From positions 178,002,001-178,066,000 of the forward strand of contig OZ024741.1 of NCBI GenBank assembly GCA_964016885.1: a stretch of 64,000 nt of DNA. Reading direction: 5' to 3'. This document shows positions 1,276 through 57,374 of the stretch, piece after piece. Position numbers and translations under genes: made by a program. The notes under the pieces were generated by a model that worked only from the letters and a program-made list of their open reading frames with translations, made no database searches and had not been told where the DNA came from. Positions within the stretch are counted from its first letter, which is position 1. Each line of letters opens with the position of its first letter. Source of the DNA: Eledone cirrhosa (lineage: Eukaryota).

Positions 1276-1887
1276 TGTGTGTGTGCATGTGTGTGTGCGC
1301 GCATGTCCGTATTTATATATACATATATAGCAATATCCATAGATGTGAAAAAGGAAAACGGTGCTCAATAGGGAAGAGAACAGAAATATTATATATACCC
1401 GGAACAAAAAACGCTACCTAGAGTTTCAGGGCGGAATATTAAACATATCTCCAGAATGTAAGAGGGGTGGAAATTGTGAACCATCTTCAGTCACATAAAT
1501 GAGTTTCTAAGATACTTGTAACGCTTGAATATCTGAAGTAACGCCATACAAATGTTTCTTAAAACATTGTATTATCTATTTATGTAGATAATTGTGATAA
1601 AGGCCTTCGATTTCTGATGGATTGCTTCTTGGTAGCGTGTTATATGTTAAGGCTGACAACACCTTTAAAAGACAAGGTTAATTTACTAGCATGCACCCTG
1701 AAAACCGGATATTCCATCATCTATATCTATCAAAGCTAGAATATTGCAGATTGTAGATGAGTTCGTCTAAATGGGTAGCACTCCCTCCAGAACACTTGGT
1801 GAATAGGTCAGGGACTGTCTGTCTAAAGTTTCTGATGCTTTTGTTCAGCGGAAGAAGAGCCTGTGCTCACTAACAGATATAATAGTT

Positions 1888-2059
1888 GTTTCTACTTTTG
1901 GCACAAGGCCAGCAATTATCCAGTACATTACTGGTACTTTATTTTATCGACCCCGTAAGGATGAAAGGTAAAGTTGACCTCGGCGGGATTTGAACTCATA
2001 ATGGAAAGGGCCGTAACTCTATGCGTCAAAGCATGACGTCCGACCCTCTACCGATACTG
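1888..2059 (-). mobile_element. tRNA-derived SINE family A (short form)
   Basis: Reverse complement of the copy at 60050-60233, with B-box gagttcaaatccc. Flanked by the direct repeat tataatagt (TSD). Confidence 0.85.
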
Positions 2060-3300: not shown

Positions 3301-3870
3301 ACGTTGAGACTTCATCAGAAAGCGCTTTTTGTTCACCCGCGCAACGAGTGTTGCGGTTGAATTGGAAACGTGAGTCATAATGAATCGTTGAGTAGTTGAT
3401 TACACAACCATAAACTAGGTGATCCTAACCGTTGAACTCTTAGGGTTCCTCCGCTCAACATTAATATGAGAAGTAGAGTTTGCCCAGTTAATCTATCAGT
3501 TGCCTCTTCCCTATCAACCATGCTTTAGTTCCATGACGTTCCATGACATCTGTGCGCTTATGTTAGTTGATATATTAAATTATCTATATTTATCTCCAAA
3601 TCACTGATTTGTCGAGCAAACTTGCCAAAATCACTTCTAAAAAAATTTTTTGGGGTGTTAGTAGGCGTCAGTCATCTTACCATCCCATTCCTTCTAACTA
3701 GCCTCTGTGTCACGTGATTGATTCTTTAGAATCGGCCATTTGACCTGAAGCAGTGAGAATTTCGGTACATAGAATCCAGTCCTCGCCAGCTGTTCGATCT
3801 ACCGAATTATTATTATTTTTATATGAGCCGCCAGTGTCCGCGCATTGCCTGGAGACTTAACTGAGAATAG

Positions 3871-3952
3871 ACTCCCTGATGACGCAATGAATTCTCGACA
3901 GTTGGATTACGTAACTGTCTTTATCCCATTGCAGAAACTAATTAGTTGGAGT
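3871..3952 (+). ncRNA. Type I hammerhead ribozyme, unit 1 (GUU site, predicted cleavage after 3947)
   Basis: actcc-CTGATGA-c-gcaatg...cattgc-a-GAAA-ctaattag-TT-ggagt. Stem I is actcc/ggagt, stem II is gcaatg/cattgc plus gacagtt/aactgtc, and stem III is palindromic. Confidence 0.85.
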
Positions 3953-4427
3953 GAAAATTTAAGTAAGTAAGTAAAAAAATTTTTAAAAATTTTTTTTTAA
4001 ATATTTTCTTATTTTACGTCTTTTATATTATTGTTCTGCATTCTCCTGCATTGAACCACCTAGGTACTATGACATAACCTGTGTATTTGCTAGCATGGGC
4101 GTGCATCTGTGCGCTTATGTTAGTTGATATATTAAATTATCTATATTTATCTCCAAATCACTGATTTGTCGAGCAACCTTGCCAAAATCACTTCTAAAAA
4201 AATTTTTTGGGGTGTTAGTAGGCGTCAGTCATCTTACCATCCCATTCCTTCTAACTAGCCTCTGTGTCACGTGATTGATTCTTTAGAATCGGCCATTTGA
4301 CCTGAAGCAGTGAGAATTTCGGTACATAGAATCCAGTCCTCGCCAGCTGTTCGATCTACCGAATTATTATTATTTTTATATGAGCCGCCAGTGTCCGCGC
4401 ATTGCCTGGAGACTTAACTGAGAATAG

Positions 4428-4509
4428 ACTCCCTGATGACGCAATGAATTCTCGACAGTTGGATTACGTAACTGTCTTTATCCCATTGCAGAAACTAATT
4501 AGTTGGAGT
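4428..4509 (+). ncRNA. Type I hammerhead ribozyme, unit 2 (GUU)
   Basis: Same motif as unit 1. Confidence 0.85.
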
Positions 4510-4985
4510 GAAAATTTAAGTAAGTAAGTAAAAAACTTTTTAAAAATCTTTTTAAAAAATATTTTCTTATTTTACGTCTTTTATATTATTGTTCTGCATT
4601 CTCCTGCATTGAACCACCTAGGTACTATGACATAACCTGTGTATTTGCTAGCATGGGCGTGCATCTGTGCGCTTATGTTAGTTGATATATTAAATTATCT
4701 ATATTTATCTCCAAATCACTGATTTGTCGAGCAAACTTGCCAAAATCACTTCTAAAAACATTTTTTGGGGTGTTAGTAGGCGTCAGTCATCTTACCATCC
4801 CATTCCTTCTAACTAGCCTCTGTGTCACGTGATTGATTCTTTAGAATCGGCCATTTGACCTGAAGCAGTGAGAATTTCGGTACATAGAATCCAGTCCTCG
4901 CCAGCTGTTCGATCTACCGAATTATTATTATTTTTATATGAGCCGCCAGTGTCCGCGCATTGCCTGGAGACTTAACTGAGAATAG

Positions 4986-5067
4986 ACTCCCTGATGACGC
5001 AATGAATTCTCGACAGTTGGATTACGTAACTGTCTTTATCCCATTGCAGAAACTAATTAGTCGGAGT
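4986..5067 (+). ncRNA. Type I hammerhead ribozyme, unit 3 (canonical GUC, predicted cleavage after 5062)
   Basis: Same motif but GAAActaattagTCggagt. Confidence 0.9.
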
Positions 5068-5543
5068 GAAAATTTAAGTAAGTAAGTAAAAAACTTTTTA
5101 AAAATTTTTTTAAAAAATATTTTCTTATTTTACGTCTTTTATATTATTGTTCTGCATTCTCCTGCATTGAACCACCTAGGTACTATGACATAACCTGTGT
5201 ATTTGCTAGCATGGGCGTGCATCTGTGCGCTTATGTTAGTTGATATATTAAATTATCTATATTTATCTCCAAATCACTGATTTGTCGAGCAAACTTGCCA
5301 AAATCACTTCTAAAAAAATTGTTTGGGGTGTTAGTAGGCGTCAGTCATCTTACCATCCCATTCCTTCTAACTAGCCTCTGTGTCACGTGATTGATTCTTT
5401 AGAATCGGCCATTTGACCTGAAGCAGTGAGAATTTCGGTACATAGAATCCAGTCCTCGCCAGCTGTTCGATCTACCGAATTATTATTATTTTTATATGAG
5501 CCGCCAGTGTCCGCGCATTGCCTGGAGACTTAACTGAGAATAG

Positions 5544-5625
5544 ACTCCCTGATGACGCAATGAATTCTCGACAGTTGGATTACGTAACTGTCTTTATCCC
5601 ATTGCAGAAACTAATTAGTTGGAGT
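5544..5625 (+). ncRNA. Type I hammerhead ribozyme, unit 4 (GUU)
   Basis: Same motif as unit 1. Confidence 0.85.
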
Positions 5626-6037
5626 GAAATTTAAGTAAGTAAGTAAAAAACTTTTTAAAAATTTTTTTAAAAAATATTTTCTTATTTTACGTCTTTTATA
5701 TTATTGTTCTGCATTCTCCTGCATTGAACCACCTAGGTACTATGACATAACCTGTGTATTTGCTAGCATGGGCGTGCATCTGTGCGCTTATCTTAGTTGA
5801 TATATTAAATTATCTATATTTATCTCCAAATCACTGATTTGTCGAGCAAACTTGCCAAAATCACTTCTAAAAAAATTTTTTAAACATTTTTTTGAAAAAT
5901 ATTTTCTTATTTTACGTCTTTTATATTATTGTTCTGCATTCTCCTGCATTGAACCACCTAGGTACTATGACATAACCTGTGTATTTGCTAGCATGGGCGT
6001 GCATCTGTGCGCTTATGTTAGTTGATATATTAAATTA

Positions 6038-6096: not shown

Positions 6097-6740
6097 AGGG
6101 ATAACAAAATATCGTTATAGTAATCCATTTAGAGGTTGTGAATACTTCTTATTATGGATAGTTTTAGCGTACGGCGTTTTTTGACTCAACAAGAGGTCTA
6201 CGTAGATGGCGCGTTTATGATTTCACTTGTATTCCTATGTAAGTTTATATTGGAGTAATAAAATTGAAAAAGTGAAGAATAACATGGTCAACAGTACAAA
6301 AAAGGGATTTATTTACAGTCTAGCAATTGTTTCACTGATTAAGTTGTCTAGAAATTGCTGAACACTAGAAGCAGTGCCACTTAATTTCAAATACGATGTT
6401 AGCCTAATCAGATCATCAGAGACAACTATCCGGTAAATTTACAAATTCAAATTACGGCATCATTAATAATGGTTTCTTATATATGCACAAGGCCAACAAT
6501 TTTCGGAGAGGGGTATGGCGATTAAATCGACTCCAGTGCGTGACTGGTACCTTATTTTATCGACCCCGTAAGGATGAAAGGCAAAGTTAACCTCGGCGGA
6601 ATTTGAACTCAGATCATAAGGGCCGTAACTCTATGCTGCAAAGCATGGCGTCCGACTCTCAACCGATACTGCCAATCCACCGCCCTACGGCATCATTAAT
6701 AATATTAATAATAAAGATATAGAGAGAAAAAAAAGAAATA
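6097..6740 (-). mobile_element. PLE-type terminal-repeat (pLTR) remnant with decayed hammerhead, interrupted by a SINE
   Basis: 6097-6250 recurs at ~36155-36310, and 6390-6470 recurs inverted at ~37225-37325. The minus strand reads gtct-CTGATGA-tctgatta...taatcag-t-GAAA-caattg-ct-agac. Flanked by (TA)n. Confidence 0.6.
6471..6685 (-). mobile_element. Full-length tRNA-derived SINE family A (long form) with 18-bp TSD
   Basis: A-box-like tggcagtatcgg and B-box gagttcaaattcc on the minus strand. TSD tacggcatcattaataat at 6453-6470 and 6686-6703. Confidence 0.92.
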
Positions 6741-8480: not shown

Positions 8481-8921
8481 ATTTATTAAAATAACAGATT
8501 AAAGTTTAAGCAAGGAATCGCTGCTTTCACCCTTAACGGGATCTTCTGAAACGAACGAAGTCAATCTGTAAACGCAGAAGTGGATATTTCAAAAACCGTT
8601 GCTCTACGGTTCTTATATATTTGATTTATCCTTATCGAGCCCTCTTTGGATTTTAGTCTTCAAATTTATTATTATTACTATTATTATTATTATTATTATT
8701 ATTATTGAATGCCATGGTTGACGGAGGCTCGGCTCTGTAAGTTATAGTAATTTTTAACCGTTAAAACAATTGTAAATTGTTTAAAACTTGAACCAAATTG
8801 TTGATAAAGACACCCTCCTCCTCGTGAGAGGGGTCTTTCTGTCCGTTATTTGGCCCTTTGGGGTTAAATAACCAGTTATTGGGGTTTTGTACCCAAAATT
8901 TCATTTTAAACAAAAAACAAC

Positions 8922-11020
8922 ATGGCTACGAAAAAGAAATTTCATACGTCACTCCCACTCATTCCGTCTTCTTCTTCCTCAATCATCACTACAGCAGAGA
9001 GAAGATTGTCTCTCCCCCCCCCCCTTCTTTAAATGTGTCTCTCTCCCTCCCTTCTCTTTCGCAAGTGACGAAAGAAAAGAAAAGTCTCGTGCAAAGCGTG
9101 CAAGGTTTCTCCACGACGACGACGACAGCGACGAAACAGGTGTGCGGGAAATACGAAAACCCAGTTCATTCGTCTGACGTCAGGAATAATAGCAGTAGCA
9201 GCCGTAATAACAACTGCAACAGTGACAATGAAAACAACAGTAGCAGCCGCAACAGCATCACCAGCAGCATAAACAACAACAGCATTAGCAGCAGCAACAC
9301 CAACAACAACCACAGCAACAGCGGCGGAGGCAGTAGTCGTAGTACCTGCAGCAACAACAAAAGTACCAGCAGCTCTGACGACAACAACAACAGCAGAGAA
9401 AAACCAATCTCATTTGCAGGTATTGCGAAAAACTTGGAAACAATCCTCATAACAAATGAGGAATTAGAGGAAGCGAAGAAGATGGTGACAAAGAACGGAC
9501 ACCGAGCAATCTGCAAGGCAGCGGAAAAATTTTTCAAAACCCAAGAGCACTGTACGGTCACGTACCGTACAGTAAGTACAAAATCCCGTAGGGTGGAAAG
9601 AGCCACAGAGGCCCAAATACAAAAAGCCTTGGGGTCTGTGTGGCAGCGGAAAACGCACATCACCCGAGGCAAAAAATATGCCACCGTAGACGTACTTTTT
9701 GCCACACCCCAGGAGGCAAAGGCCCAATCAGTAGTGACCCTAAGGAGCGAGGAAATGGTGTTGGTGCCCTCCTACTGCGGGCAAAAAATTGTGAGGGTCA
9801 AACTGACCCACGTCCCCCCCGGAATGACCCCTTCTTGGCTGGCCGCGTCTGTCCTAATCGGAATCGAGGACAAAACAACTGTACTGCAAGTACAGAAAAA
9901 AGTAAGAGAAGATTGGGTCGGCTCCTCCATTGAGATGCTAATCCAAACCAACCAGGAGTGCATCGAAGCTATCCCGGATGTGATAGACTTCGATAACGGC
10001 ACTCAACTGCCCATAAGTGTTGAGGGCAAACGCCCGAAATGCTTTCGCTGTGGATCGAAGACTCACCTCAGGGCCTTCTGCAACGAGAAGACCCTGAGAA
10101 AGGAGAAAACCCCCCTCCTTCCGAATCCGGCTCCACGGCTACCAGCAACAGGACAAGCGGCAACCAGGAACGATAGGCCCGTGGCACCCATACCCACTCC
10201 ACGGAAATCAAAAACAGCAGCAGCAGTGGAAATACTTACAACAACAACAGCAATACCAAATGCAGCTGCAACAGAGACTCCAGTGCAAACATCACCAACA
10301 ACAACAAGTGAAAGAGTGGAGCTGGTACCCCTCCCCGACCTCACAGAATCAGACATGGAGTGTGAGGTGGGAGAGAGGTGGCAAAAGGTCGTAAGAAGGC
10401 ACAAACGCAGAAGCAGCGCATCGTCGCCTTTGAAAAGGGAGGAAAGAAATGAGAAAAGGGTAAAGTCTACTGCAAAGAGACCCACAGCAGCAACAACACC
10501 AACACCATCACCACCCACACTAGCGCCACCATCACCACCGGCGACAACCCCACCGCCAACAACACCTTCAACACCACCACCACAAGCACCAACATCGCAA
10601 ACACAACAACAAAACGCACACACCCAGCAACAACGACAAGAAAATAGCAGAACCACACCCCACCCCCAGAAAAACAAATGCACGGCAATAAATACACACA
10701 ACAAGAAACTAATGACTTACATAATTGAACACACAGACATTTCACAACAGGACTACATAATACCAGCACCAATCAAAACGCCAACTAACATAATACTGCT
10801 AAAAATAGCACAGAAACAATACACAAATATTAAAACGAAATTCCCCAACGCAGTTGGTGATTTCAGGGACCTAGGAGGAACCATCAATCGAAGAGTATAC
10901 TCAGACATTCTCTTAGAAGAGCCGACGACCAGCCGAAGGGACGATTCAACGGTCCCTTCACCAGACGATCAAGTGAAAAGGGATGTAAAAACCATCCCTC
11001 CTCTACCAAAAGTACGGTAA
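8922..11020 (+). CDS. LINE ORF1, gag-like protein with CCHC zinc knuckle (probable 1-nt frameshift in C11 run at 9014-9024)
   Basis: Open frame 8858-11020 with CFRCGSKTHLRAFC (CX2CX4HX4C), an Asn/Ser-rich N-terminus and a Pro/Thr-rich C-terminus. The likely start ATG at 8922 is in another frame until the poly-C run. Confidence 0.85.
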
Positions 11021-11055
11021 GTGGTCTTTCCCATCTTTTCCACTCTATTTTAAAC

Positions 11056-14000
11056 ATGACCTCACTCAGAATAGGCAGCATAAATGCGCGTGGCTTGGGG
11101 TCGTCATGGAAGCAGGGTCACCTGCTCAACGACCTCAGGTCACTAAACATAGATGTAGTGGCCATCAGCGAGACCAGAATCTCCGAAGCACGGGCCTTCG
11201 CACCGATCTTCGGCGGCTACGATGTGTACGCATCTCCCAGCCGTCCTGGATCGGGTGGAGGAGTTGCTGTGCTTTTTCGGAGAGGTTTGGATCTCGCCAT
11301 ACGGGCCATCTTCCTGGACCCAGAGGGTAAGCTGGTGGTGCTGGACGTGACCAGCGGAGACGGGCAAGCTTTCAGGCTAGTGGCCGTCTATGCCCCGACA
11401 GGAGCAGGGCGGCCTGATTTCTTCCGGCGTCTGGAGACCTTTCTTGGAACGTCCCGCTCTTTAGTGTTAGTGGGCGACTGGAACGGGATCTTAGATGCAC
11501 GCTGGGACTGTGTGGGATTAGCGGATAGGGGTGGAGGGTGCAAGAGCCTCACCAACCTGCTCAGGCGTTTTGAACTGTCTGACAGGTACCGATTGGATTT
11601 CCCGAATGTGCCAATGTGGACTTGGACAAACCGCATAGGGTCATCCAGATCATATCTAGATAGAGTATTTTGTAGGGAAATAGATAGGTCTAGCATAGGC
11701 TGTCCACAATTCAAGATAGTCAGCTACACGGACCACAAATTCGTGACCTGTGTGCTTGACTTAGATAGGCTTCATAGACGAGGACCCGGCTACTGGAAGC
11801 TAAACGCGTCCTTACCAGCGCGCAAGGCCTACAGAGACCGGATTAGCGAACTAGTTAAGCGGGCGTTGACGGGGGCCATCGTCAACAACAAGTGGTGGTT
11901 TGCTCTGAAAAGAGCGATTAGAATAGAATCGATTAGGTTTAGTAAGGCTTTAGCAATAGAGAAAAATAGAGCAGAGGGAGAACTAGTTAGAAAATTAGAC
12001 GAGGCGCTTAGCAAAGGCATTGCGACCGACGTGCTTGCGGCGAAATTGGCCCTTGACCAATTCTTCAATGCAAAGCACGAAGGCTGCGTTGTCAGAGCTA
12101 GGGTGCGTGCTCTCAGACACGAGGGGACGAAAGCCGTTCAATGGGCCCGAGTGGCGGAGGCGCGTCGTGGCAACAAAGCCACGATCCGGTCTTTGGTGGA
12201 CCACGACGGGCGCATGCTACTCGATCCCGGGCAAATGTGTGAAGCTTTTCAGCGACACTTCGCTCAGCTGTTCGGGGGCAGAGGGGGGCCGAGTAGAGGG
12301 ATGGACTTTAGTGTCTACCTCGACGGACTGCCGCGGCTCTCGGCCACTGAGGCGAAGTGTTGCGAAAAGCCGATAACAGCCGCTGAAGTACGGGAGGCAA
12401 TGACTGGCTGCACAAGGGGTAAATCGCCTGGTTTGGATGGTCTGCCCTATGAACTTTACGTACAGATGCCAGACTTGTTCGGAGGCCTCTTGGCGGACGT
12501 CTACTGCAACTGGCAACAGAACGGGAGAATTCCCAGTTCTGTGAGCCGAGGAGCGGTGGCACTGCTGAGAAAGGATCCGAACAAGGGGGATAACATAGAC
12601 AATTTCCGGCCCATAACTCTGCTAAACACAGAGTTTAAGATTTTGGCCAAGGTGCTAGCAAAGAGGTTGGCGCTTGTCGTTGGTGGTCTGGTGGGAGAGG
12701 CGCAGACATGCGCCATTCCCGACAGATCCATCCACGACAACCTCCACCTCATGCGATACATCGTAGAGAGGGTAGCTAGGGAACCTGGCACGGGTGGGTC
12801 CTTGATCAATTTAGATCAGTCGAAAGCTTTCGATAGGGTCGACCATCGTTACCTAGCGGCCGTCCTGAGGGCGGCTGGCTTTGGGCCCGTCTTCAGAGGC
12901 TGGATCGCTGCCATGCACAGCGACATCTGCTCTGTGGTGAGAGTGAACGGTCACCTGTCGGAACCGTTCAACATCATGCGCTCGGTCCGCCAAGGATGTC
13001 CCCTCTCGTCCCTCTTGTACGTATTGACTCTCGAGCCATTACTGCACAAACTGGAGACGTTGAGGGGAGTCCCGCGCGAACTAGGATGCGGAAGATCCGT
13101 GTCAGCATATGCGGACGATGTCACCGTAGTGGTGTCGAACGCCAAACACATCGAGGCGATCGGCACTACACTAAGAGAATACGAAGCGGTGACAGGAGCA
13201 ATGATCAACCAGGAAAAGTCAGTGGGCCTGCAGCTCGGCACCTGGAGAGGCAGGTCCATGCCGTCCAACAGCGTCGTCGGGCGCTGGACGGACGGACCGG
13301 TTAAATTGCTAGGGGTCTGGTTCGGTCCGGACCTCCAGACGGACAAAAACTGGGACGAGGTGACGAGCAGGGTGGCTTCTCTCACCCAGAAATGGGCGGA
13401 GAGGAAGCTATCCCTGAAAGGTCGAGCGGAGGTGGCTAACGCGTACATCGCGTCTGTCATCTGCTACCGCCTAACCGTCGTACCTTGTCCTAAGCCTCGC
13501 CTGACTGCGCTGGAGCGTTTGCTCTTTCGCTTTTTGTGGAAGGGACGTGCTCCGATGGTCAGGCGGTCCATCTGTTGTCAACACCCGCTACGTGGAGGGC
13601 TGGGCATGCCGTGGCTGATGATGTGCAGGCACGCGCTCAGGCTACGACATCTCCACCTCTTCCTCGACGGTGATCAGGTGTGGTCGCCGTTTGCTAGACG
13701 CGTTTTTCCCCAGCTCGTTTCCTTGACGGAGCTGCAGTCCTGGGTCAAGCGAAGACCGAGAGGGAGCGCCTGGAGACTGGAATGTCTTCAGGCGCTCACC
13801 GCCCTCGACCAATCGGGCAATGTGATCGGTGGAAACTCCACCTCGGCGTTCTATAGAGGATTAGTGGAGGGGAAGAGCGACGACGTACTTGGGGAAACTC
13901 TAGGCGTCGACGAAAATCAACTAGCCAATCTCTTCGGAAGAACTTTCGGGCCAGGGCCTATGGACAACTTCCAGAAATCTCTGGCCTGGCAGTGCTACCG

Positions 14001-14475
14001 AGGAGCCTTGCCAGTTCGGGATAAACTCTACAGGCATGGAGGTGCCGTCAGCCGGGCATGTCCGAGATGCGCGCAGGGCGACGAAACCGTCCTGCACGCA
14101 CTCGTCCAGTGTCCGAAAATTGCTGACTTGTGGGTTTATGTCGAACACCTGCTGTAGCGTTTAGGACGGATCCAGCTATCATCTGAGTCTATCGTGAGGA
14201 TTGCCCCGCCCTCTTCCTTTAGCCGGGAAGGGCAGGCAGTTTTTATCTGTCTGGTGGCCATGGCGAAAGAGATAGTATGGTGGACACGTTTGAAAGGGCT
14301 GAAGACGAGCACTTACCTCTTCGGTGATGCTCTGATTGACTTTTTCAAATTTCATTTAAAAAGGAAAATCAGAGTAGAGAAGGAAGTGCTCTCTTCCCAG
14401 CATTTTGTTGAAAGATGGGTGAGAGAAGCAAGAATGGCCCGAGTGAATGGGCCGACTCTGAGTATATATCTGTAA
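11056..14475 (+). pseudogene. LINE ORF2 (APE endonuclease + reverse transcriptase + C-terminal zinc finger) with one premature stop at 14155-14157
   Basis: Motifs SINARGL, ISET, VYAP, GDWN, YLDR, TDH (APE); KSPGLDG, FRPITLLN, LDQSKAFDRV, VRQGCPLS, AYADD (RT); CPRC...ETVLHALVQC. ORF 14194-14475 is in the same frame after the TAG. Confidence 0.95.
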
Positions 14476-15447: not shown

Positions 15448-15487
<40 letters not shown>

Positions 15488-15578
15488 CGAAGGAAATGTG
15501 GTAAGGAACCAGGTGGACCATAACGCACCAAAGTACTCAATACTTGAGGTAGTAGAGTGGGTAATAGGAACCAGTAAG

Positions 15579-15672
15579 ACCCCGACAGCTGAGCTCAAGC
15601 CGTTTCGACGGCTAATTCTGGACTAAATGAAAATTTATCCTGGTATTTAAATAGCCGATCTTCTCAAGGGGT
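15579..15672 (-). ncRNA. Variant type I hammerhead (U3-A8 core) in PLE terminal repeat
   Basis: Reverse complement of the motif at 18148-18241. Confidence 0.75.
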
Positions 15673-16782
15673 AATTCCATATATGGTCAAAGTGATTGTC
15701 AAAAATCAGTAGTAATTCTGTGGTTGCAAATTAGTAGGGGAGATGGTGGCTAAACCTGCCAGTAGGAGAAAGAGGGGAGGGGGTGGAGTAGACCCAATCA
15801 AGCGTTGGTAGTGCCAGCTACAGCTGGGCATGAGGTCAAAGAAGATACAGGGGAGGGGGAGGGGGAGGAAGTCGGAACGGTAGGTAGAACAATGGGGGGT
15901 AGAAATATATAGGAAAGAAAAAATACTGAGAGTGAAGAAAAGCAAATAAGTGTAAAGAAAAAAGTAAAGTAAATTAAATTCTACGACCTAGGTCTCAGGC
16001 TATTGCTAGGCTAGAATAAAATAAATAAAGAAAGAAAGAAGTAAAGAAATAAATAAATAAAGAAATAACGAAATAAGTAAAAGAACTAGGTGGGACGGAT
16101 TAGGCAAGGACCCTTTTAAGAGGTATAAGTACGTAAATGATACGGTGACGGGTCAACAAAAGGGGCCAAAATATTAAAGAGACTACCACGAAATAAACAA
16201 TAAAGGTTTCCATCCCGGGCCAGCAACGACCCAGTGCAGCAAAGTGAACTTGTACGAGATAATAATTCTGAGTCCCGAGAAAAATATATACTAATGCTAA
16301 CTCTAAAAGATCTAAAACAAGCTACATGAAAGTTCGTACGAAATAAAGGTAGAATACGGAGAAATAAATTCAGAATCCACCCCGCCCAGAACAAAAGCGA
16401 AGCAAGAAATACTGAAACGAAAAAATAAGGCATAAGTGCCACTAAGAAATATAGAAGGCACAGAGAATAGTGGGAGCGGTCGGAAAAAGGGGGCAAGTAT
16501 CCGGGGTCTAAGCCAACTGCTATAAAGGGCGGAGTCCGCCAAATCTATCATAGACTAGGGGAGGGTGTGGGGGGTACTAAGGCTACATGGGGCCAAAGGG
16601 CAGCCTCGGGTGGGCGAGAAAAGACGCCGACAAAGGAGAAGAGCTGGGGTAGAAGGACTAAGGAGAGAGGGGGGAAGGAAATAAAGGAAGCGATAAAAGA
16701 ATACAAAGAAGATCTTACGTCTTCCTTGGCAAGCAGGGGTTACCCATTGCAAAATCGGCAAGTGGGGTGTTATAGCCCTAGT

Positions 16783-17448
16783 CTACCCCCCCCCCCCCCC
16801 CCCCGGGTCATTATGGGGTTTGAGGGCGAGGTAAGTCCTACGCAATCTATGTTTACATGCAGTAACCAGTTCATCTTTCTTGTTTAGGAGTTGGTCCGTC
16901 GAAAACAGCATTTGTAAAGTTTCCTCCGAGCATAAATTGCACGGACGGCGTCCTCCCGTGTAAGAATTGGCTCTGGACAGTAATCTCCAAGTGAGATCAT
17001 AGGTGATGTTGTTGTCCTTGAGGTCCCATATGTGGCCCGAAAGTGTAGTGGCGTGACGCCGGGCCGGGTTTCGGAAGGTATGTCTATGTTGGTATAGCCG
17101 GGTCTTGAAGTCACATGCGGTAAGTCCTATATAGGCTTTGTTGGAGGTATCCGTCCTCACGTTGCACTGGTAGATCACATTACGGTCTCTGCATCTATTG
17201 TCGAGTGGGCAAATAGATCTATCCGGGCAGTTACACCTCCTGGTCGGTTCTCCACTGCTATTTAGGTTATTTCTGCCATCGGGCTTGAGTTTTTTGTTGT
17301 TAGAGGAGACGATGTTTTGTGCGAAGTTTGGTGTAGTGCTGTAAGAGAGTTTGATGGTATTTTTGTTAATTATGTTGTGGTAGCGGTGTTGTAATGGGAA
17401 GTGTTTTTCAATGAGCCTAAAGAATAGTTTCCCGATGGGAATTGTCAC
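16783..17448 (-). CDS. PLE C-terminal linker + GIY-YIG endonuclease (5'-truncated fragment)
   Basis: KLSYS, CNCPDRSICPLDNRC, VIYQC...YIG, FKTR, CNLCSEE, LLNKKDE, CKH. Confidence 0.9.
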   Translation of the reverse strand: MTIPIGKLFFRLIEKHFPLQHRYHNIINKNTIKLSYSTTPNFAQNIVSSNNKKLKPDGRNNLNSSGEPTRRCNCPDRSICPLDNRCRDRNVIYQCNVRTDTSNKAYIGLTACDFKTRLYQHRHTFRNPARRHATTLSGHIWDLKDNNITYDLTWRLLSRANSYTGGRRPCNLCSEETLQMLFSTDQLLNKKDELVTACKHRLRRTYLALKPHNDPGGGGGG

Positions 17449-18147
17449 CTTATTTATTTCTCCGTATTCTACCTTTATTTCGTACGAACTTTCATGTAGC
17501 TTGTTTTAGATCTTTTAGAGTTAGCATTAGTATATATTTTTCTCGGGACTCAGAATTATTATCTCGTACAAGTTCACTTTGCTGCACTGGGTCGTTGCTG
17601 GCCCGGGATGGAAACCTTTATTGTTTATTTCGTGGTAGTCTCTTTAGTATTTTGGCCCCTTTTGTTGACCCGTCACCGTATCATTTACGTACTTATACCT
17701 CTTAAAAGGGTCCTTGCCTAATCCGTCCCACCTAGTTCTTTTACTTATTTCGTTATTTCTTTATTTATTTATTTCTTTACTTCTTTCTTTCTTTATTTAT
17801 TTTATTCTAGCCTAGCAATAGCCTGAGACCTAGGTCGTAGAATTTAATTTACTTTACTTTTTTCTTTACACTTATTTGCTTTTCTTCACTCTCAGTATTT
17901 TTTCTTTCCTATATATTTCTACCCCCCATTGTTCTACCTCCGTTCCGACTTCCTCCCCCTCCCCCTCCCCTGTATCTTCTTTGACCTCATGCCCAGCTGT
18001 AGCTGGCACTACCAACGCTTGATTGGGTCTACTCCACCCCCTCCCCTCTTTCTCCTACTGGCAGGTTTAGCCACCATCTCCCCTACTAATTTGCAACCAC
18101 AGAATTACTACTGATTTTTGACAATCACTTTGACCATATATGGAATT

Positions 18148-18241
18148 ACCCCTTGAGAAGATCGGCTATTTAAATACCAGGATAAATTTTCATTTAGTCC
18201 AGAATTAGCCGTCGAAACGGCTTGAGCTCAGCTGTCGGGGT
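18148..18241 (+). ncRNA. Variant type I hammerhead (U3-A8 core), predicted cleavage after C18236
   Basis: acccc-TTGAGAA-gatcggcta...tagccgtc-GAAA-cggct(tgagctc)agctg-TC-ggggt; all three stems pair. Confidence 0.75.
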
Positions 18242-18754
18242 CTTACTGGTTCCTATATATATATATATATATATATGTCTAACATTTTGAATGACCCTCC
18301 AAAAACCGGGGGTTGCTTCCCTTGCTGGAATTAACACGTGACAACTATAGATACGATACGCTGCATTTATCAGCAACATTAACCTATCACCCCTTTCTGA
18401 GTAGAAAGAATAGACTGGTGAAAAACTGAATCCTCCGTTCGATCATGAATACCACGAGCTCGCCAGTCACGTAAGTCTGATATTTGATTTCGGATTTCAA
18501 AGAAACACTTTAAACGTATAATCGTTTGATTTGTCCAGGTGTATTTTTCTCAACCTGTTAGTTCTATCGTTACTTTGGTATATTATTGTGTGTTAGATAT
18601 TGCCTACCACAATGTTCGATTTGTCAAGCTATTTAAACGTATGTTATTACTCTAAGGACCTAACTTATCGAGTGCTTTGCTAACTCATCATTTCATATAA
18701 GTAGGCCGATTTTGCTTGCAATCGCCAGAGATTCTATTTTATTAAATTTCCAAT

Positions 18755-22057: not shown

Positions 22058-22371
22058 GCTGGTCTGATCTCCGTTTAAAATCATCAAAAACAATAGAGTG
22101 GTTTGAAAAATGTTTCTTCCAGATACTTCACTCATTAAATAATCCTGATTAGAAAACATAATTCTGTTTTTTGCTAAAGGGCATTATATACATTGGTTGT
22201 CTAGTCTGCATATTGTACCAAAATACCAATGAATATATAATTACATGGTTTTCTTCCAGAAAGAATATTTATAATATGAATATGATATTACTATAGTTTT
22301 TATGTTATGACTGACGTCATACTTTGCTGGTTGCATTAACTGGCCCTTTTGTTATATAATTGATATTTCAA

Positions 22372-22478
22372 ATAATTTTTTCTACTTTAGGCACAAGGCC
22401 AGCAATTATCCAGTGCATTACTGGTACTTTAATGCCAGACTATACTCGCCTTGTGCCTATAGCAGAAATCATTATTTT
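22372..22478. mobile_element. Two SINE family A 3'-end fragments in inverted arrangement
   Basis: ttctactttaggcacaaggcc...ctggtac (minus), then gccttgtgcctatagcagaaatcattatt (plus). Confidence 0.65.
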
Positions 22479-27510: not shown

Positions 27511-27616
27511 TATATATATATATAACGAAGGAAATGTGGTAAGGAACCAGATGGACCATAACGCACCAAAGTACTCAATACTTAGGGTAGTAGAGTGGGT
27601 AATAGGAACAAGTACG

Positions 27617-27712
27617 ACCCCGACGGCAGAGCTCAAGCCGTTTCGACGACTATTTCTGGACTAAATAAGAATTATTAGCCTGGTAAATAAATAGCCGAAC
27701 TTCTCAGGGGGT
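27617..27712 (-). ncRNA. Variant hammerhead-like motif (CUGAGAA core) in left pLTR
   Basis: acccc-CTGAGAA-gttcggcta...tagtcgtc-GAAA-cggc(ttgagctct)gccg-TC-ggggt. Confidence 0.6.
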
Positions 27713-28659
27713 AATTCCTTACATGGGAAGATAGTAATTGTCAAAAGGATTGGTCAAAAATGTGTTGTAAAGAGAGATGATTCTATCATGGCAGTTAGTG
27801 GGAGGTAGGGGTAGCTGAACTTACCGGTAGAACAAACAGGGAGTGGGGGAAACCCAGGCAAGCGTTGAAAGTGAAATCTATACAGCAGATTCTAAGGATA
27901 GTGTATAGAAGGTCGAAGAAAGTGAACTGGAGAAGGGGAGGGGGTAGTTCAAAGAATAGATAAATCGAAAGGGAGTAAACAAAAACCATTATAAAATTGA
28001 GGAAATAAATATATTAAAAAAACAATTTCTGGTTACTACTCTATCCCCACAATCACCAAATCTCTCATTGGTATTGCTAAGCTATAGAAAAGTTTAATAG
28101 GTGGAGAAAAATTCTAAATACGAGATTGTAGTGAAATAATTTTATAAAGCCGGTTTTACAGGGGTCTAACACCACTGCTATAGTTAGTAGTAATCAGCCA
28201 ATGCTATCTTACAATGACAGGTTAATAAGTTGAGAATAAACATACTAAAATACTACTACAAAAATAATAATACGAAATATTAATTTAGAATACTAATGCA
28301 TAAATACTAATACAAGAATACTAATACAAAAATACCACTAAGAAATTTAGAAATCACGGAAATGGAGCAGCAACAGAAAGATGACAATTTACTGGGGTCT
28401 AACACATCTGCTATAAAAAGCGTAATCGGCCAATTCTATCTTAAATTTAGAGAGGTGGGGGTACTGAGGCTATACAGGACCGATGGGCTGCATCGGGGGG
28501 GGGGGGAGAGGAAAAAAAAGACAAGGAAGGAGATCTGAGGTGGAAGGACTACGAAGAGATGGGTGGAAGAAGGAAATATAGAGGAAAAGATAAAAATGTT
28601 ACGTCCACCTTTGTAAGCATGGGTTACCCCTTACAAAATCCACAAGTGGGGTGTTTCCA

Positions 28660-30583
28660 CCCTTGTCTACCACCGGGTCATTATGGGGTTTGAGAGCGAG
28701 GTAAGTCCTACGCAATCTGTGTTTGCATGCAGTTACCTGTTCGTCTTTCTTTTTTAGGAGATGGTCCTTCGAAAACAGCATTTGTAATGTTTCCTCCGAG
28801 CATAAATTACACGGACGGCGTCTTCCCGTGTAAGAGTTAGCTTTTGGACAGTAAGCTCCAAGTGAGATTGTAGGTTATATTATTATCTTTGTGATCCCAG
28901 ATGTGGCCCAAAAGTGTAGTGGCATGACGCCGGGCCGGGTTTCGGAAAGTATGTCTGTGTAGGTAGAGCCGGGTCTTGAAGTCACAACCGGTTAATCCTA
29001 TATAAGCTTTGTTGGAGGTGTCCGTCCTCACGTTTTACTGGTAGATCACATTACGATATCGGCATCTGTTGTTGAGGGGGAAAAGGAGTCTATCAGGACA
29101 GTTACACCTCATGGTCGGCTCTCCACTGCTGTCTAGGTTATTCCTTCGAGAGGGGTGGAGTTTTTTGTTGTTAGTGGAGCCGATGTTTTCTGCGAAGTTA
29201 GATATTGGTGTTGTAGGAGAGTTTGATGGTGTTTTTGTTGATTATGTTGTGGTAGCGGTGTTGTAGTGGGAAGTGTTTTTCGATGAGCCTATAGAAGATT
29301 CTCCCGATACGTGTTGTCACCTCGGTATTGTGGGGAGGATTGCACCACGTTACGTTGCGTGAGCGGCCGTGTCGCCTGCTGGTTCCGCTAATGGAAGCTG
29401 GATAATTGGATATTTCCTCCCGGAAGCCACTCCGCTTGAGGGCCTGGTTGTAATAAGGCGCATGTTCATCGAATATCTGCTCAGTAGCGGACAAACGAGA
29501 TATGCGGAGGGAGATGTTTTTAACCAGGTTATTGGTGATGTTTCTAGGATTGTTCGACCGGCGGTGGATGTAATGCAGGTTGTCATTTTGTTTCCTGTAT
29601 GGGTAGTACAGATCATTATCGAGGTTAAGGGTAACATCCAGGAAGTTTACTCGGGTTAGGGACGTTTGTAGGGTTATTTTAAATCCACAGTCTCGGAAGA
29701 AGCTGATTAATTGTTTACGGACCCGGTCTGTACTACTGGGGTTGTACCCTTTGAGAGTAAAGAGCCCATCATCACGGTACAAACCATCGCCGATTGCAGG
29801 AAACATTTCGGTGAGTTTAAATAGTAGGAATAATCCTATAAGATCTGTTACCTCAGTCGAATCCGTCGCGCCCATACTGACGTCGAAGGGGGAGTCAGGG
29901 GCTCTCTTTATCCATTTGGAGTTGTCGAAAAGTAGGACTGACTTCCAGGCGTGGAGGATGATATTTCTTTCCTGGTCGGTGATGGGCGTGAGTCTTTCGG
30001 CAAATAAAGGAGCCTAAGTTAATTGATGCATAGTAACTCTCTATGTCAAACTGGATGAATTTTGTGTCTCGTTTGTCCTCCATATTGCTGAACCATGAGA
30101 TTACTTCCTGGGTGTTGACCCACAGGCTAAGTCTCGCGTTTTGTTTAACTTTTGGTATAAAGCGGTCTAGGATATTTTTACTGATTCTCCCTATGTCGGA
30201 CTTCGTTGGGTTTATAAGCCTGATGGATGGTTTACGGTCGAAGTCGGATTTGTGGTCCTTCAATAAGAAGTAGGGATCCGTGGGTTACGGGGTTCAGTGC
30301 GGATTGCGAACCCCGAGGCTGGAGGTAATTTGTTGTCCATTTCGATTTATGTTCTCGATACTTGAATGGTTAGCCTTTTATAGGTGGAGTTTAGGCTGCT
30401 CCTGATCAGTGTGTGGTATCTGTCGGGGTTGACGAAGTAGAGGTTTCCAGTTTTGTCCGAGTGCACCATGATGTCGTTGGTGTTTTCATACTCTGTTAAT
30501 TTGCTACGGAGTTTTTGTAGGAATCTGTTGTGTCTGGGTTTGAATTTAATGCTCTTGACCAGTTGGAAAAGGTTATTCTCAAG
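28660..30583 (-). pseudogene. PLE RT + GIY-YIG, left arm (frameshifted, lacks the first ~75 codons)
   Basis: SDKT, RLINPTKSDIG, FIQFDIESYY, MGA, GLYRDDGL, VNFLDVTL, YPYRK, YIGL across ORFs 30347-30637, 29895-30263, 29198-29875 and 28837-29031. Confidence 0.92.
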
Positions 30584-30599
30584 TTCCTTCACCCGCACC

Positions 30600-32767
30600 A
30601 TGCGAAAATACAACATCGATTTCTCCACCAAGAACATTCCAGTTTCACCGAGAAAACTTTACCTTCGGATGCTCACGCAAAAAATAGACCTCTTAGCGAA
30701 AAGACTAAGGTGGAGAACTTTTTTCTACGACAGATATTGCGACAATCAGGTCTTCGATACCAAGGAGTGATTCGGATTTAATACCTACAAATCTCTCCCA
30801 CCGAACCCTATGCTCTCACCCTTCGAGAATGACCTTTTCCAACTGGTCAAGAGCATTAAATTCAAACCCAGACACAACAGATTCATACAAAAATTCCGTA
30901 GCAAATTAACCGAGTATGAAACACCAACGACATCATGGTGCACTCGGACTAAACTGGAACCTCTACTTCGTCAACCCCGACAGATACCACACACTGATCA
31001 GGAGCAGCTTAAACTCCACCTATAAAACGCTAACCATTCAAGTATCGAGGACATAAATCGAGATGGACAACAATTTACCTCCAGCCTCGGGGTCGCCGAC
31101 TACACTGAACCCCGTAACCCACGGACTCCCTACTTCACACTGAAGGAACACAAATCCGACTTTGACCGTAAACCATCCATCAGGCTTATAAACCCAACGA
31201 AGTCCGACATAGGGAGAATCGGTAAAAAAAACTCCTAGACCGCGTTATACCAAACGTTAAGCAAAACGCGTGACTTAGCCTATGGGTCAACACCCAGGAA
31301 GTAATCTCATGGTTCAGCAATATGGAGGACAAACGAGACACAAAATTCATCCAGTTTGACATAGAGAGTTACTATGCATCAATTACCTTACCGCTGCTTA
31401 CGGCCGCCTTGGACTTTGCTGAAACATTCAGGCCCATCACCGACGAGGAAAGAAATATCATCCTCCACGCCAGGAAGACAGTCCTACTTTTTGACAACTC
31501 CAAATGGAATTAAGAGAGCTTTTGACTCCCCCTTCGACGTCAGTAAGGGCTCGACGGATTCGGCTGAGGTCACAGATCTTATAGGATTATTCCTACTATT
31601 TAAACTCACCAAAATATTTCCTGCATTCGGCGGTGGATTGTACCGTAATGATGGACTCCTTACCCTCAAAGGGTACAACCCCAGTAGTACAGACTGGGTT
31701 CGTAAACAATTCATCAGCTTCTTCCGCGACTGGGGATTTAAAATAACCCTACAAACGTACCTATTTCGAGTAAACTTCCTGGATGTTACCCTTAACCTCG
31801 ATAATGAGCTGTACTACCCATACAGGAAACCAAATGACAACCTGCATTACATCCACCGCCTGTCGAACAATCCTAGAAACATCGCCAATAACCTGATTAA
31901 AAACATCTCCCTCCGCATATCTCGTCTAGTTTGTCCGCTAATGAGCAGATATTCGACGAATATGCGCCTTATTACAACCAGGCCCTCAAGCGGAGTGGCT
32001 TCCGGGAGGAAATATCATATTATCCAGCTTCCATTGGCGGAACCAGCAGGCGAAACCGCCGCTCACGCAACGTAACGTGGTGCAATCCTCCCCACGATGC
32101 CGTGGTGACAACATGTATCGGGAGAATATTCTTTAGACTCATCGAAAAACACTTCCCACTACAACACCGCTACCACAACATAATCAACAAAAGCACCATC
32201 AAACTCTCCTACAGCACCACAGCTAACATCGCAAAAACATCGTCTCTTCTAACAACAACAAATTAAACACCTATGGAAGAAATGACCTAGACAGCAGTGG
32301 AGAGCCGACCAGGAGGTGTAACTGTCCTGATAGATCTCTTTGCCCCCTCAACAACAGATGCCGAGATCGCAATGTGATCTACCAGTGCAACGTGAGGACG
32401 GATACCTCCAACAAAGCTTATATAGGATTAACCGGTTGTGACTTCAAGACGTGGCTCTACATACACAGACATACCCTCCAAAACCCGGCCCGGCGTCATG
32501 CCACTACACTTTCGGGCCACATCTGGGATCTCAAAGATAATAATATAACCTACAATCTCATTTGGAGCTTATAGTCCAAAAGCTAACTCTTACACGGGAA
32601 GACGCCGTCCGTGTAACTTATGCTCGGAGGAAACATTACAAATGGTGTTGTTGAAGGACCAACTCCTAAACAAGAAAGACGAACAGGTAACTGCATGCAA
32701 ACACAGATTGCGTATGACTAACCTCGCCCTCAAACCCCACAATGACCCGGTGGTAGACAAGGGCTGA
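30600..32767 (+). pseudogene. PLE RT + GIY-YIG, right arm, complete from ATG but with stops and frameshifts
   Basis: Starts MRKYNIDFSTKNIPVSP...KRLRWRTFF, then FIQFDIESYY, GLYRNDGL, VNFLDVTL, CNC..CP..C, IYQC..YIG, CNLC. Confidence 0.92.
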
Positions 32768-33727
32768 AATACACCACTTGCAGATTTTGTAAGAGGTAAC
32801 CCATGCTTACAAAGGTGGACGTAACTTTTTTCATCTTTTCCTCTATATTTCCTTCTTTCCCCCATCTCTTCCTAGTCCTTCCACTCCAGATCTCCTTCCT
32901 TGTCTTTTTTTTCATCTTTTCGCCCACCCCGATGCAGCCCATCCGTCCTGTATAGCCTCAGTACCCCCACCCCTCTAATTTTAAGATAGAATTTGCCGAT
33001 TACGCTTTTTATAGCAGATGTGTTAGACCCCAGTAAATTGTCTTCTTTCTGGTTGCTGCTCCATTTCCGTGATTTCTAAATTTCTTAGTGGTATTTTTGT
33101 ATTAGTATTCTTGTATTAGCATTTTTGCATTAGTATTCTAAATTAATATTTCGTATTAGTATTTTTGTAGTAGTATATTAGTATGTTTGTTCTCAACTTA
33201 TTAACCTATCATTGTAAGATAGCATTGGCTGATTACTACTAACTATAGCAGTGGTGTTAGACCCCTGTAAAACCGGCTTTATAAAATTATTTCACTACAA
33301 TCTCGTATTTAGTATTTTTCTTCACCTATTAAACTTTTCTATAGCTTAGCAATACCAATGAGAAATTTGGTGATTGTGGAGATGGAGTAGTAACCAGAAA
33401 TTGTTTTTTTAATATATTTATTTCCTCATTTTTATAATGGTTTTTGTTTACTCCCTTTCGATTTACCTATTCTTTGAACTACCTACCCCCCCCCCCCCCC
33501 TTCCCTTCTTCAGTTCACTTTTTTCGACCTTCTATACACTATCCTTAGAATCTAATGTATAGATTTCACTTTCAACGCTTGCCTGGGTTTCCCCCACTCC
33601 CTCTTTGTTCTACCGGTAAGTTCAGCTACCCCTACCTCCCACTAATTGCCATGATAGAATCATCTGTCTTTACAACAACATGTTGACCAATCCTTTTGAC
33701 AATTACTATCTTCCCATGTAAGGAATT

Positions 33728-33823
33728 ACCCTCTGAGAAGTTCGGCTATTTATTTACCAGGCTAAAAATTCTTATTTAGTCCAGAATTAGCCGTCAAAAC
33801 GGCTTGAACTCTGCCATCGGGGT
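33728..33823 (+). ncRNA. Decayed hammerhead-like motif in right pLTR
   Basis: CTGAGAA core retained but GAAA>AAAA and GUC>AUC; probably inactive. Confidence 0.45.
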
Positions 33824-34035
33824 CATACTTGTTCCTATATATATATATAGAGAGAGAGAGATTAGAGCAAAAATCACGAGCACTCTATCTAAAAATTATT
33901 TTAGAAAAGCCTCAGAAATGCGCAACCGGTAAAAACTTAATACTAAAACTGAATACTTATTACTCATTTATACTTATTCCTAATTAAACTATTTTTCACT
34001 GGGAAAACATTTTCAGCATTTTCTTTTCCTTTTTA

Positions 34036-39144: not shown

Positions 39145-40206
39145 TTCTTGTCTCCGTCTGTGCACATGCGTTTGCGTGTGTATATATATATATTTGTGCC
39201 TCATGGTATGCTATTACGGAAACTATACAAACGAAATGGGAATAGAAAATATTATGTCAGTTTCCCTTAGCTTAAATGATTGTGAAAATGTGGATATACG
39301 AAAATGAACAATAAAACGATATTCTTTTCTCTCTTTCTCTTTATCTCTCTCTTCCACTCACACGCCCACACCCTCTCCCCTTACCCTCTCGCTATTTTTT
39401 TTTTCAGTTCATATTGGATGGTTTAACTATTGGCGTAGATCTAGTCCTTCTTTGTATACGGTGTTGTCACCACAAGAATGTCTTGAATAAAAGGAATGGT
39501 GGACGATACGTGTTATTGCTTTGAGAAAATCTTCATACACTCTTGCAATACTATATTAAATATATTTCATTCGTGGGTTTTTCTTTGTTTTGTTTATGTT
39601 TCTAATGTGACTTCCTGTGTTATAAACATTGTTAAACATACATTTTGTTTACTTTCCTCTATCCATCACCTGGTCGTGTTTGATTTCATAACACCACCAT
39701 TCTGCGAATTTTGACTACAATATATTTGCAAATGAAATTTACTTTTCAATTTTGAAGCAGCCAATGTTCTTTCTATTTTATTCCTTACGAACGATATGAA
39801 TATAAAATGGAGTTTTCTTCATGCTTGTTGTGCAGGTGATTTACTTTTACTGTGTTTCTTTAAAATGCAATATCCTTGAAGCACCGTGTTTGAAATTTCT
39901 CTCATAAAAGCTGGGTTTTTTATCACATAATTTCTTTTTCAATTTGTAGGTTTCGACATCGTTTCGTTTATAATTTAACTCCTTGGTAAGCAAGAAAATA
40001 TACTTATCTGAGAATAAATCAAACCAAATGTTACGTCCACCGCATCCGCTTTGGTGATCCAACAAACGTAGCTGTGCAATATTTCAATGATTCCATATTT
40101 GAATACTTTTATCCACAAGCTAAAGAAAGTTTCTCTACGCGTTTCTGTACTTAACAAAGAATATCATAATCCTTCATATCATAATCCACTCTATTACAAA
40201 GAAATA

Positions 40207-40385
40207 ATTATTTCTACTTTTGGCACACGGCCAGAAATTAGCCCAGTGCATTACTGATACTCTATCTTATCGACCCCGTAAGGATGAAAGGCAAAGTTAA
40301 CCTCGGCGGGATTTGAACTCAGACTGTAAAGGGACGTAACCATGCTGGAAAGCATGGCGTCCGACCCTCTACCGATACTGCCAAT
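40207..40385 (-). mobile_element. SINE family A (short form)
   Basis: Clear match to the other copies. Confidence 0.88.
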
Positions 40386-57134: not shown

Positions 57135-57374
57135 TTGTATATATTGTTATATTTTCGGAGGGTCATATTGCCAATGAAAAGGCACGCACCTGAGGGTTTT
57201 CACTTCAATTTATTATAAATTTCCTGCGGTTGGTTGGAAAAGCGGATGGTTGTTTATGTATTATCAAAGCGCTTTCGTCACTCATTCAGTGATTGGATTT
57301 TTATTTTATGTCACTCCTTTATTCTGTCCTACACCACTTTGTTATATATGTATATATGTATTCGTGCTTGTATT

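What the first reader, a model, noticed from the sequence alone, without database searches (positions are those of the whole stretch)
18141..18253. PLE terminal repeat carries a hammerhead with a U3-A8 swapped core
Seen: all three stems form around UUGAGAA (instead of CUGANGA), GAAA and GUC. The older subfamily (27617-27712) converts a stem III G-U pair to G-C, supporting the fold, but has CUGAGAA (C3-A8 mismatch). Established: C3-G8 is a tertiary pair and U3-A8 is a known rare compensatory variant. PLE repeats commonly have hammerheads, usually minimal ones. This one has a full stem III and a large loop II, and standard CUGANGA searches would miss it. The loop II accag could pair with downstream ctggt.
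Basis: partly seen in the sequence, partly recalled or inferred. Interest (0 to 1): 0.72.

Follow-up and report, generated by a model that had tools for sequence, protein, structure and literature searches.

The report
Penelope hammerhead leaving cut-site fossils
This is a hammerhead-shaped RNA motif at the end of a young, very abundant jumping gene; its U-A core pair is already published, but many tiny genomic copies begin exactly at the predicted cut site, so the motif likely does cut some of the element's RNA in the cell, although the family also multiplied while that core pair was mismatched.

Summary
The motif is real. Stems I-III surround UUGAGAA, GAAA and GUC, with the predicted cut at 18236/18237. 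It lies in the terminal repeat of a young Hydra-clade Penelope-like element, and intact copies carry it at both ends. Genome-wide there are 4,954 U3-A8, 1,521 mismatched C3·A8 and 26 G8 cores. Position 7 takes all four bases while 13 core positions stay fixed among subfamilies (p about 0.002-0.008). U3-A8 in PLE hammerheads is already published (Schistosoma).

- About 156 young copies start exactly at the base after the cut site, against about 11 at one control offset. This is likely a fossil of cleaved RNA.
- The young U3 lineage descends from a C3·A8 lineage, so the pair was restored.
- Helix III is a near-palindrome (dimer type).
- Most copies start in loop II or read through the motif, so cleavage is likely partial and not needed for copying.

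The proposed ACCAG/CUGGU pairing is not conserved, and the stem III G-U is derived. Cleavage was not assayed. The scan noted the same features on other DNA of this genome, and U3-A8 PLE hammerheads in other genomes.

The parts
18141..18253 (+). Type I hammerhead motif, U3-A8 core, youngest subfamily
18153..18159 (+). Core U3-U4-G5-A6-G7-A8-A9
   Evidence: family spectrum
18160..18213 (+). Helix II with 37-nt loop II (inner hairpin). Most short copies begin about 18188-18207; TTAGTC with its A at 18196 is a possible initiator (motif recalled, untested)
18214..18236 (+). G12-A13-A14, helix III with near-palindromic loop (UGAGCUCA), U16.1, C17
18236..18237 (+). Predicted scissile bond C17/G1.1; about 156 young copies genome-wide begin at the base equal to 18237
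17452..18256 (+). 3' UTR arm of a 5'-truncated inverted insertion, ending 19 nt past the cut site in (TA)n
15485..17450 (-). Partner arm: C-terminal ORF fragment with YIG endonuclease (16786-17450), 3' UTR, identical hammerhead (15567-15679) and the tail to 99 nt past the cut site
27604..27716 (-). Older-subfamily hammerhead, C3·A8
30560..33838 (+). Older-subfamily copy with broken RT-EN ORF and decayed C3·A8 hammerhead (about 33722-33835); inverted partner of 27602-30580

Best explanation
The stretch is a type I hammerhead motif in the pseudo-LTR of a young Hydra-clade Penelope-like retrotransposon, and it likely cleaves a minority of the element's RNAs after C17 in vivo, slowly and probably with help from a second copy or the element's protein, without being required for copying. 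Shown: the element, the motif, its core spectrum and the pile-up of copy ends. Inferred: the reverse transcriptase starts internally at about +19 and +99 past the cut site. On uncut RNA it reads through the motif and gives long copies. On RNA whose 5' end lies in loop II (likely a transcription start, or a stall) it gives the very common short palindromes. On self-cleaved RNA it runs off at G1.1 and gives 19+99-nt mini-insertions. Selection on master elements kept the core and stems, tolerated a C3·A8 mismatch for a long period, and then restored the pair as U3-A8. This particular copy has no RT and is predicted to be inert.
For: Element: intact ORFs of about 720 aa with the U3-A8 motif at both ends and unit tandems. 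P0001 has RWR, DKT, YRDD, CxCX5C, YIG, CxxC and CxH, matching the Hydra definition except R for K in RWK (PMC8557442 section 11). Constraint: 0 of 13 core columns vary among subfamilies versus 25-30 of 69 free columns (p 0.002-0.008), and 1 of 19 unconditioned stem columns varies. N7 is G 67, A 15, U 14, C 8 of 104. Cleavage fossils: 186 hits for copies starting at G1.1, of which 84 of the first 100 are true junctions (read by eye), versus 10 hits, 9 true, for a start 4 nt upstream. In 30 of about 47 recognisable inverted partners the second arm also stops at G1.1, and 17 of the 21 single-base spacers are A or T, where uncut RNA would template G. Of 21 fetched arms, 19 are 99-nt mini-copies. 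History: U3 monophyly is rejected (AU p 3e-4 protein, 1e-48 DNA), and the young U3 clade is nested in C3·A8 copies. Dispensability: C3·A8 has 1,521 copies, and most ORF-side copies read through the site. The PAc hammerhead is protein-assisted and not needed for insertion in vitro (PMC11167929). A two-copy fold is predicted 16.5 kcal/mol more stable than two monomers.
Against: No cleavage assay was done. The cut-site peak rests on one control offset; counts at -1, -2 and +1 were not obtained. The loop II start cluster is larger per base than the cut-site peak: 23 of 30 hits start at -30 to -49, roughly 600 per base against about 200 (rough estimate). None of 68 mapped ORF-side 5' ends lay exactly at G1.1; five lay at -6 to -1. 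The partner arm's end is not independent if it is copied from the first cDNA. The six best loose-end rows from DNA contigs did not include the cut site (low power). In a pairwise mutagenesis of another hammerhead only the G3-C8 swap rescued well (PMC9901934 passages). A sister family thrives with an uncompensated U4-to-A core. Frangieh et al. found no RNA-seq ends at the PAc site.
Confidence: 0.62

Rival explanations
1. The motif is a catalytically dead or near-dead scaffold, kept for protein binding, promoter function or RT priming. Copies starting at G1.1 are RT stalls at the three-way junction.
For: C3·A8 masters made about 1,500 copies. The sister family is fixed for CAGAAGAU in 40 of 50 rows. 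A competing hairpin AGCCGU-CGAA-ACGGCU hides G12-A14 in several subfamilies (pair probability 0.56-0.80). Starts at -6 to -1 exist. Hammerhead mutants do not affect PAc insertion in vitro.
Against: Conservation follows catalytic rules: N7 is free, the unpaired core bases are fixed, and the only change at position 3 that spread restores a Watson-Crick pair with A8. A stall at the foot of helix III should still copy the unpaired C17 (inference), yet partner arms stop at G1.1 far more often than at -1.
Confidence: 0.22
2. The hammerhead cleaves efficiently and unit-length RNAs are circularised. Reverse transcription around circles restores the junction, so the 'read-through' copies are circle products (the Cervera and de la Pena model).
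For: Exact head-to-tail tandems of 3.53-3.55 kb, up to four junctions in a row. Pseudo-LTRs of very variable length. Cut-site starts show that cut RNA likely exists.
Against: Tandems also arise from read-through multimers. A circle holding a monomer-foldable hammerhead would re-cleave. The long C3·A8 phase is hard to square with obligatory fast cleavage.
Confidence: 0.12
3. G1.1 is a minor transcription start or a nuclease-processing site that happens to coincide with the hammerhead cut site.
For: pLTRs hold promoters (PMC6765202 passages). A discrete 5' end exists 41 nt upstream.
Against: It needs single-base coincidence with the scissile bond.
Confidence: 0.04

Closest known systems
Hammerheads of Hydra-clade PLEs (Craig et al. 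2021, PMC8557442; section 11, passages, supplement part 2 and search hits read)
   Same: Protein motifs, (TA)n targeting, type I hammerhead near the 3' end, short complete helix III.
   Different: All 26 Hydra rows of their File S2 have C3-G8 cores, 3-4 bp helix III with 1-3 nt loops and loop II of at most 10 nt. Here the core is U3-A8 or C3·A8, helix III has 5-6 bp with a 7-9 nt palindromic loop, loop II is 37-41 nt, and the unit is about 3.5 kb.
U3-A8 minimal hammerheads of Schistosoma mansoni Cercyon PLEs (Cervera and de la Pena 2014, PMC4209133; parts 1-3 of 4 read, supplement searched)
   Same: Same core swap in a PLE terminal repeat (about 1,300 hits there); palindromic helix III logic; opposite-strand pairs.
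   Different: Those lack helix III. No mismatch intermediate, lineage order or cut-site-anchored copies are described in the parts read.
PAc (Poseidon, Anolis) hammerhead and internal RT initiation (Frangieh et al. 2024, PMC11167929; passages and section 3 part 2 read)
   Same: Two 3' termini (optional tail), read-through templates dominant.
   Different: Canonical core and no helix III. They saw no RNA ends at the cut site, whereas here genomic copies begin there.
Natural U3-A8 core variants (Perreault et al. 2011, PMC3088659; passages read)
   Same: Covariation at the 3-8 pair, described as active in vitro on the basis of Przybilski and Hammann 2007 (not held, not read).
   Different: No amplified C3·A8 state is reported in the passages read.

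Membership tests
Type I hammerhead ribozyme | Three helices around the core, open ends in helix I | tested here: met
Type I hammerhead ribozyme | U4 G5 A6 A9 G12 A13 A14, A15.1-U16.1, H17, G10.1-C11.1 conserved; N7 free | tested here: met
   95-100% each in 101-104 copies; N7 takes four states
Type I hammerhead ribozyme | Watson-Crick 3-8 pair | tested here: met
   U3-A8 in this copy and 4,954 copies; not met in 1,521 C3·A8 copies
Type I hammerhead ribozyme | Loop II / helix I tertiary contact | tested here: inconclusive
   The ACCAG/CUGGU pairing is perfect in only 35 of 101 copies; an internal loop in helix I exists
Type I hammerhead ribozyme | Self-cleavage after H17 | not testable with these tools
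   Indirect only: excess of copies starting at G1.1
Rfam hammerhead families | Covariance-model match | tested here: not met
   no hammerhead family among 118 matches at E<=10
Hydra clade of PLEs | RT with RWK-like and DKT motifs; C-terminal GIY-YIG; CxCX5C linker; CxxC and CxH around E and N | tested here: met
   (RWR in place of RWK; Pfam gave no significant hit)
Hydra clade of PLEs | pLTR tandem or inverted insertions, optional tail, (TA)n targets | tested here: met
Hydra clade of PLEs | Phylogenetic placement with reference Hydra elements | not tested
   Reference proteins were seen in the supplement but no tree with them was built
Hydra clade of PLEs | Canonical C3-G8 hammerhead; length under 3 kb (typical, not strict) | tested here: not met
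Nematis or Naiad PLEs | CX2-5CxxC zinc finger; N-terminal endonuclease (Naiad) | tested here: not met
   no CX2-5CxxC match; YIG at residue 606 of 719

The most novel reading that the evidence does not exclude
This family is a fossil record of a ribozyme being tuned in vivo. Genomic mini-copies mark true self-cleavage by a U3-A8 hammerhead. The master lineage passed through a mismatched C3·A8 core and restored the pair, perhaps twice, possibly from a C3-G8 ancestor. PLEs whose long helix III lets them fold as monomers use core substitutions (U3-A8 or C3·A8 here, U4A in the sister family) as a brake, so that most templates stay uncut.
Probability: 0.3. Interest if true: 0.7.

Novelty: new variant of a known kind. 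Interest (0 to 1): 0.47.

Why it matters
Whether PLE hammerheads cut in vivo, and whether that matters for transposition, is open: published motifs are slow in vitro, PAc's is dispensable for insertion, and no RNA ends were found at its site. This family offers a genomic read-out of cleavage (copies starting at G1.1) and a dated natural allelic series (U3-A8, C3·A8, rare C3-G8) in one backbone. Cleavage rate, cut-site copy fraction and amplification success can therefore be compared directly. The swap itself is not new.

Tried and rejected
- DNA search of the own genome returned nothing because common words are skipped; patterns were used instead.
- No RNA holder was listed, so expression and RNA ends could not be examined.
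- Contigs of unlabelled runs showed the same variant sites. They gave no loose-end row at the cut site among 6 shown of 86; power was low.
- My first guess, Nematis, was rejected for Hydra.
- A register-shift origin (loss of one A from CUGAAGAAG) was dropped. Relatives at 36% identity have CUGAGGAG, one transition from CUGAGAAG. C3 copies are nearly all G7 (21 of 24), but this may be shared ancestry.
- A loose end suggesting a different stem I partner gave only 2 hits.
- A surviving C3-G8 subfamily was not shown. The 8 C3-G8 copies are 0.5% of C3 copies (U3-G8 is 0.4%), and the 6 placed in a tree are scattered. L117 and L141 sit near the split of the two lineages, but L141 pairs with a C3·A8 copy.
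- Rooting failed: a root on the old U3 branch is not rejected (p 0.25), and the DNA outgroup is too distant.
- One search's subfamily counts held duplicated loci (core 2 of 13, p 0.06); they were redone on the 104-copy sample. The alternative-hairpin index was off by one and was corrected. The partner positions allow one mismatch and read about 1 nt too far; letters were taken.
- Przybilski and Hammann 2007, Lunse et al. 2017 and one further id were not held, so measured rates for C3·A8 and U3-A8 were not seen. One supplementary file of PMC4209133 could not be searched.

Full report
Observation. Stem I is ACCCC (18148-18152) with GGGGU (18237-18241). The core UUGAGAA is 18153-18159, G12-A14 are 18214-18216, C17 is 18236 and G1.1 is 18237. 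The three-helix fold is the minimum-energy structure, though no more stable than shuffles (z -0.15). Its ensemble probability is 0.46 alone, 0.017 with 81 more upstream bases, and 0.33 in a longer context with the tail. A relaxed descriptor finds no U3-A8 hit in 20 of 20 shuffled windows. Rfam lists no hammerhead. An identical inverted copy lies at 15567-15679, and two older C3·A8 copies lie at 27604-27716 and about 33722-33835.

The element. The copy is the 3' end of one arm of a 5'-truncated inverted insertion in (TA)n, 15485-18256, which keeps only an endonuclease fragment. A protein search of the genome scored 150 near-identical hits, many with long open frames. Of 20 long-ORF loci fetched, most show pseudo-LTR, ORF of about 720 aa, 1.1 kb 3' UTR, hammerhead and optional tail, with the U3-A8 motif at both ends, and some are exact tandems. 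The protein has RWR, DKT, YRDD, CxCX5C, a C-terminal YIG, CxxC and CxH. These are the Hydra-clade marks of Craig et al. (PMC8557442 section 11); no tree with their references was built. Three relatives at 36-37% identity carry canonical CUGAGGA hammerheads, as do all 26 Hydra rows of Craig's File S2.

The core across the family. A core-agnostic pattern gives 6,394 hits. U3-A8 gives 4,954, C3·A8 1,521 and any G8 26, of which 8 are C3-G8. In the first 100 core-agnostic hits plus the 4 window copies, U4, A6 and A8 are invariant, while position 7 is G 67, A 15, U 14, C 8. Between subfamily majorities, 0 of 13 core columns and 1 of 19 unconditioned stem columns differ, against 25-30 of 69 columns in loop II, the upstream flank and the 3' junction (p 0.002-0.009 at three clustering thresholds). 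This is the pattern of selection on a hammerhead in master elements. No two-sided compensation occurs in helices I-III. The helix III G-U is the derived state of the youngest subfamily. The ACCAG/CUGGU pairing is perfect in 35 of 101 copies; others have CUUGU, CUCGU, CUUUU or CAUUU. Helix III and its loop form a near-palindrome, and two copies are predicted to fold together 16.5 kcal/mol better than apart. This is the dimer-type trait of PLE hammerheads (PMC6765202 passages).

History of the 3-8 pair. Trees built on ORF sequence alone (27 copies with at least 800 nt; 5 young near-duplicates left out) show two separate U3 clades with C3·A8 copies between them. Holding all U3 copies together is rejected (AU p 3e-4 with protein outgroups, 1e-48 on DNA). 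The young clade, which includes this copy, is nested in C3·A8 copies, and its flanks on both sides match them, so it arose by a C-to-U change that restored the pair. Whether the older U3 clade is a second gain or the ancestral state is unresolved (p 0.25). Folding models favour the hammerhead in the old U3 and the youngest subfamilies (helix II and III probabilities 0.73-0.98) and a competing hairpin in C3·A8 and intermediate ones. That is prediction only.

Where copies begin. A 22-mer from the 3' half has 54,367 exact hits. Of the first 30, 23 start 30-49 nt upstream of the cut site, inside loop II, and 7 extend at least 200 nt further (several are paired arms of one insertion). This is either a transcription start (a TTAGTC with its A at -41 resembles an initiator; recalled, untested) or an RT stall. 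Of 68 mapped 5' ends of copies that continue toward the ORF, most lie upstream of the cut site and none exactly on it; 35 further rows ran past the fetched edge. Most templates were therefore uncut or re-ligated.

Against this background, young tail-bearing copies that begin exactly at G1.1 give 186 hits. By eye, 84 of the first 100 are true junctions and 16 are G-run slips or indels, so about 156 in all. The same design 4 nt upstream gives 10 hits, 9 true, or about 11 after allowing for its narrower subfamily range. That is a roughly 14-fold excess. In 30 of about 47 recognisable inverted partners the second arm also stops at G1.1, usually with an untemplated A or T. Of 21 arms fetched from the first 20 true junctions, 19 are 99-nt mini-copies, often joined head to head with a 19-nt arm. 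These are the products expected if RT starts at its two internal sites on a self-cleaved RNA. The caveats are one control offset, possible non-independence of partner arms, a larger per-base peak in loop II, and no confirmation from contig ends.

Mechanism. Most likely the motif is a slow, assisted hammerhead that cuts a minority of templates (roughly 2-18%, depending on how loop II starts are read; a rough estimate) and is not required for copying. This fits PAc, whose hammerhead is protein-assisted and dispensable in vitro (PMC11167929), the success of C3·A8 masters, and a sister family (53% identical protein) fixed for a U4-to-A core. Rivals are a dead scaffold with RT stalls, and efficient cleavage with circles.

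Novelty. U3-A8 is published for PLE hammerheads (PMC4209133) and as a natural variant (PMC3088659). Paper searches turned up no report of an amplified C3·A8 state or of PLE copies starting at the cut site; two key papers were not held, so this is weak. Earlier scan notes describe U3-A8 PLE hammerheads in other genomes and the mismatch phase, loop II starts and cut-site starts on other DNA of this genome. They are unreviewed and are not counted as support. Verdict: a real new variant of a known kind, whose value lies in making in vivo cleavage testable.

Noticed in passing
window about 8500-8556 (-); loci L203-L232: A sister Hydra-type family (709-aa ORF, 53% identical to P0001) ends in a hammerhead-shaped motif with a fixed CAGAAGAU core (U4 to A) and a long helix III; 40 of 50 rows.
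   Followed up: partly
window about 3416-5945 (+): A 557-558 bp tandem array with a canonical CUGAUGA hammerhead in each unit (cores at 3876, 4433, 4991, 5549); retrozyme-like.
   Followed up: partly
L313 (G000:C2:356030072-356031890): Seven 299-bp tandem units made of this family's hammerhead with most of loop II deleted, the tail and the ORF start; possibly a nascent retrozyme.
   Followed up: partly
L117 and L141: Two diverged copies with a canonical CUGAGGA core sit near the split of the two lineages; possible relics of a C3-G8 ancestor, not shown.
   Followed up: partly
L207 about 820-1060: Another repeat with GTCGAAACGGC and a downstream CTGATGA in unusual order; perhaps a permuted hammerhead.
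   Followed up: no
window 10861-14157 (+): A 1,098-aa open frame with endonuclease, RT and zf-RVT domains, preceded by a 730-aa frame at 8828-11020; a near-intact LINE.
   Followed up: no
window 57329-58075 (-): An RT fragment of another retroelement.
   Followed up: no
window 1881-2017, 6465-6630, 22371-22431, 40203-40340: A dispersed SINE-like repeat family.
   Followed up: no
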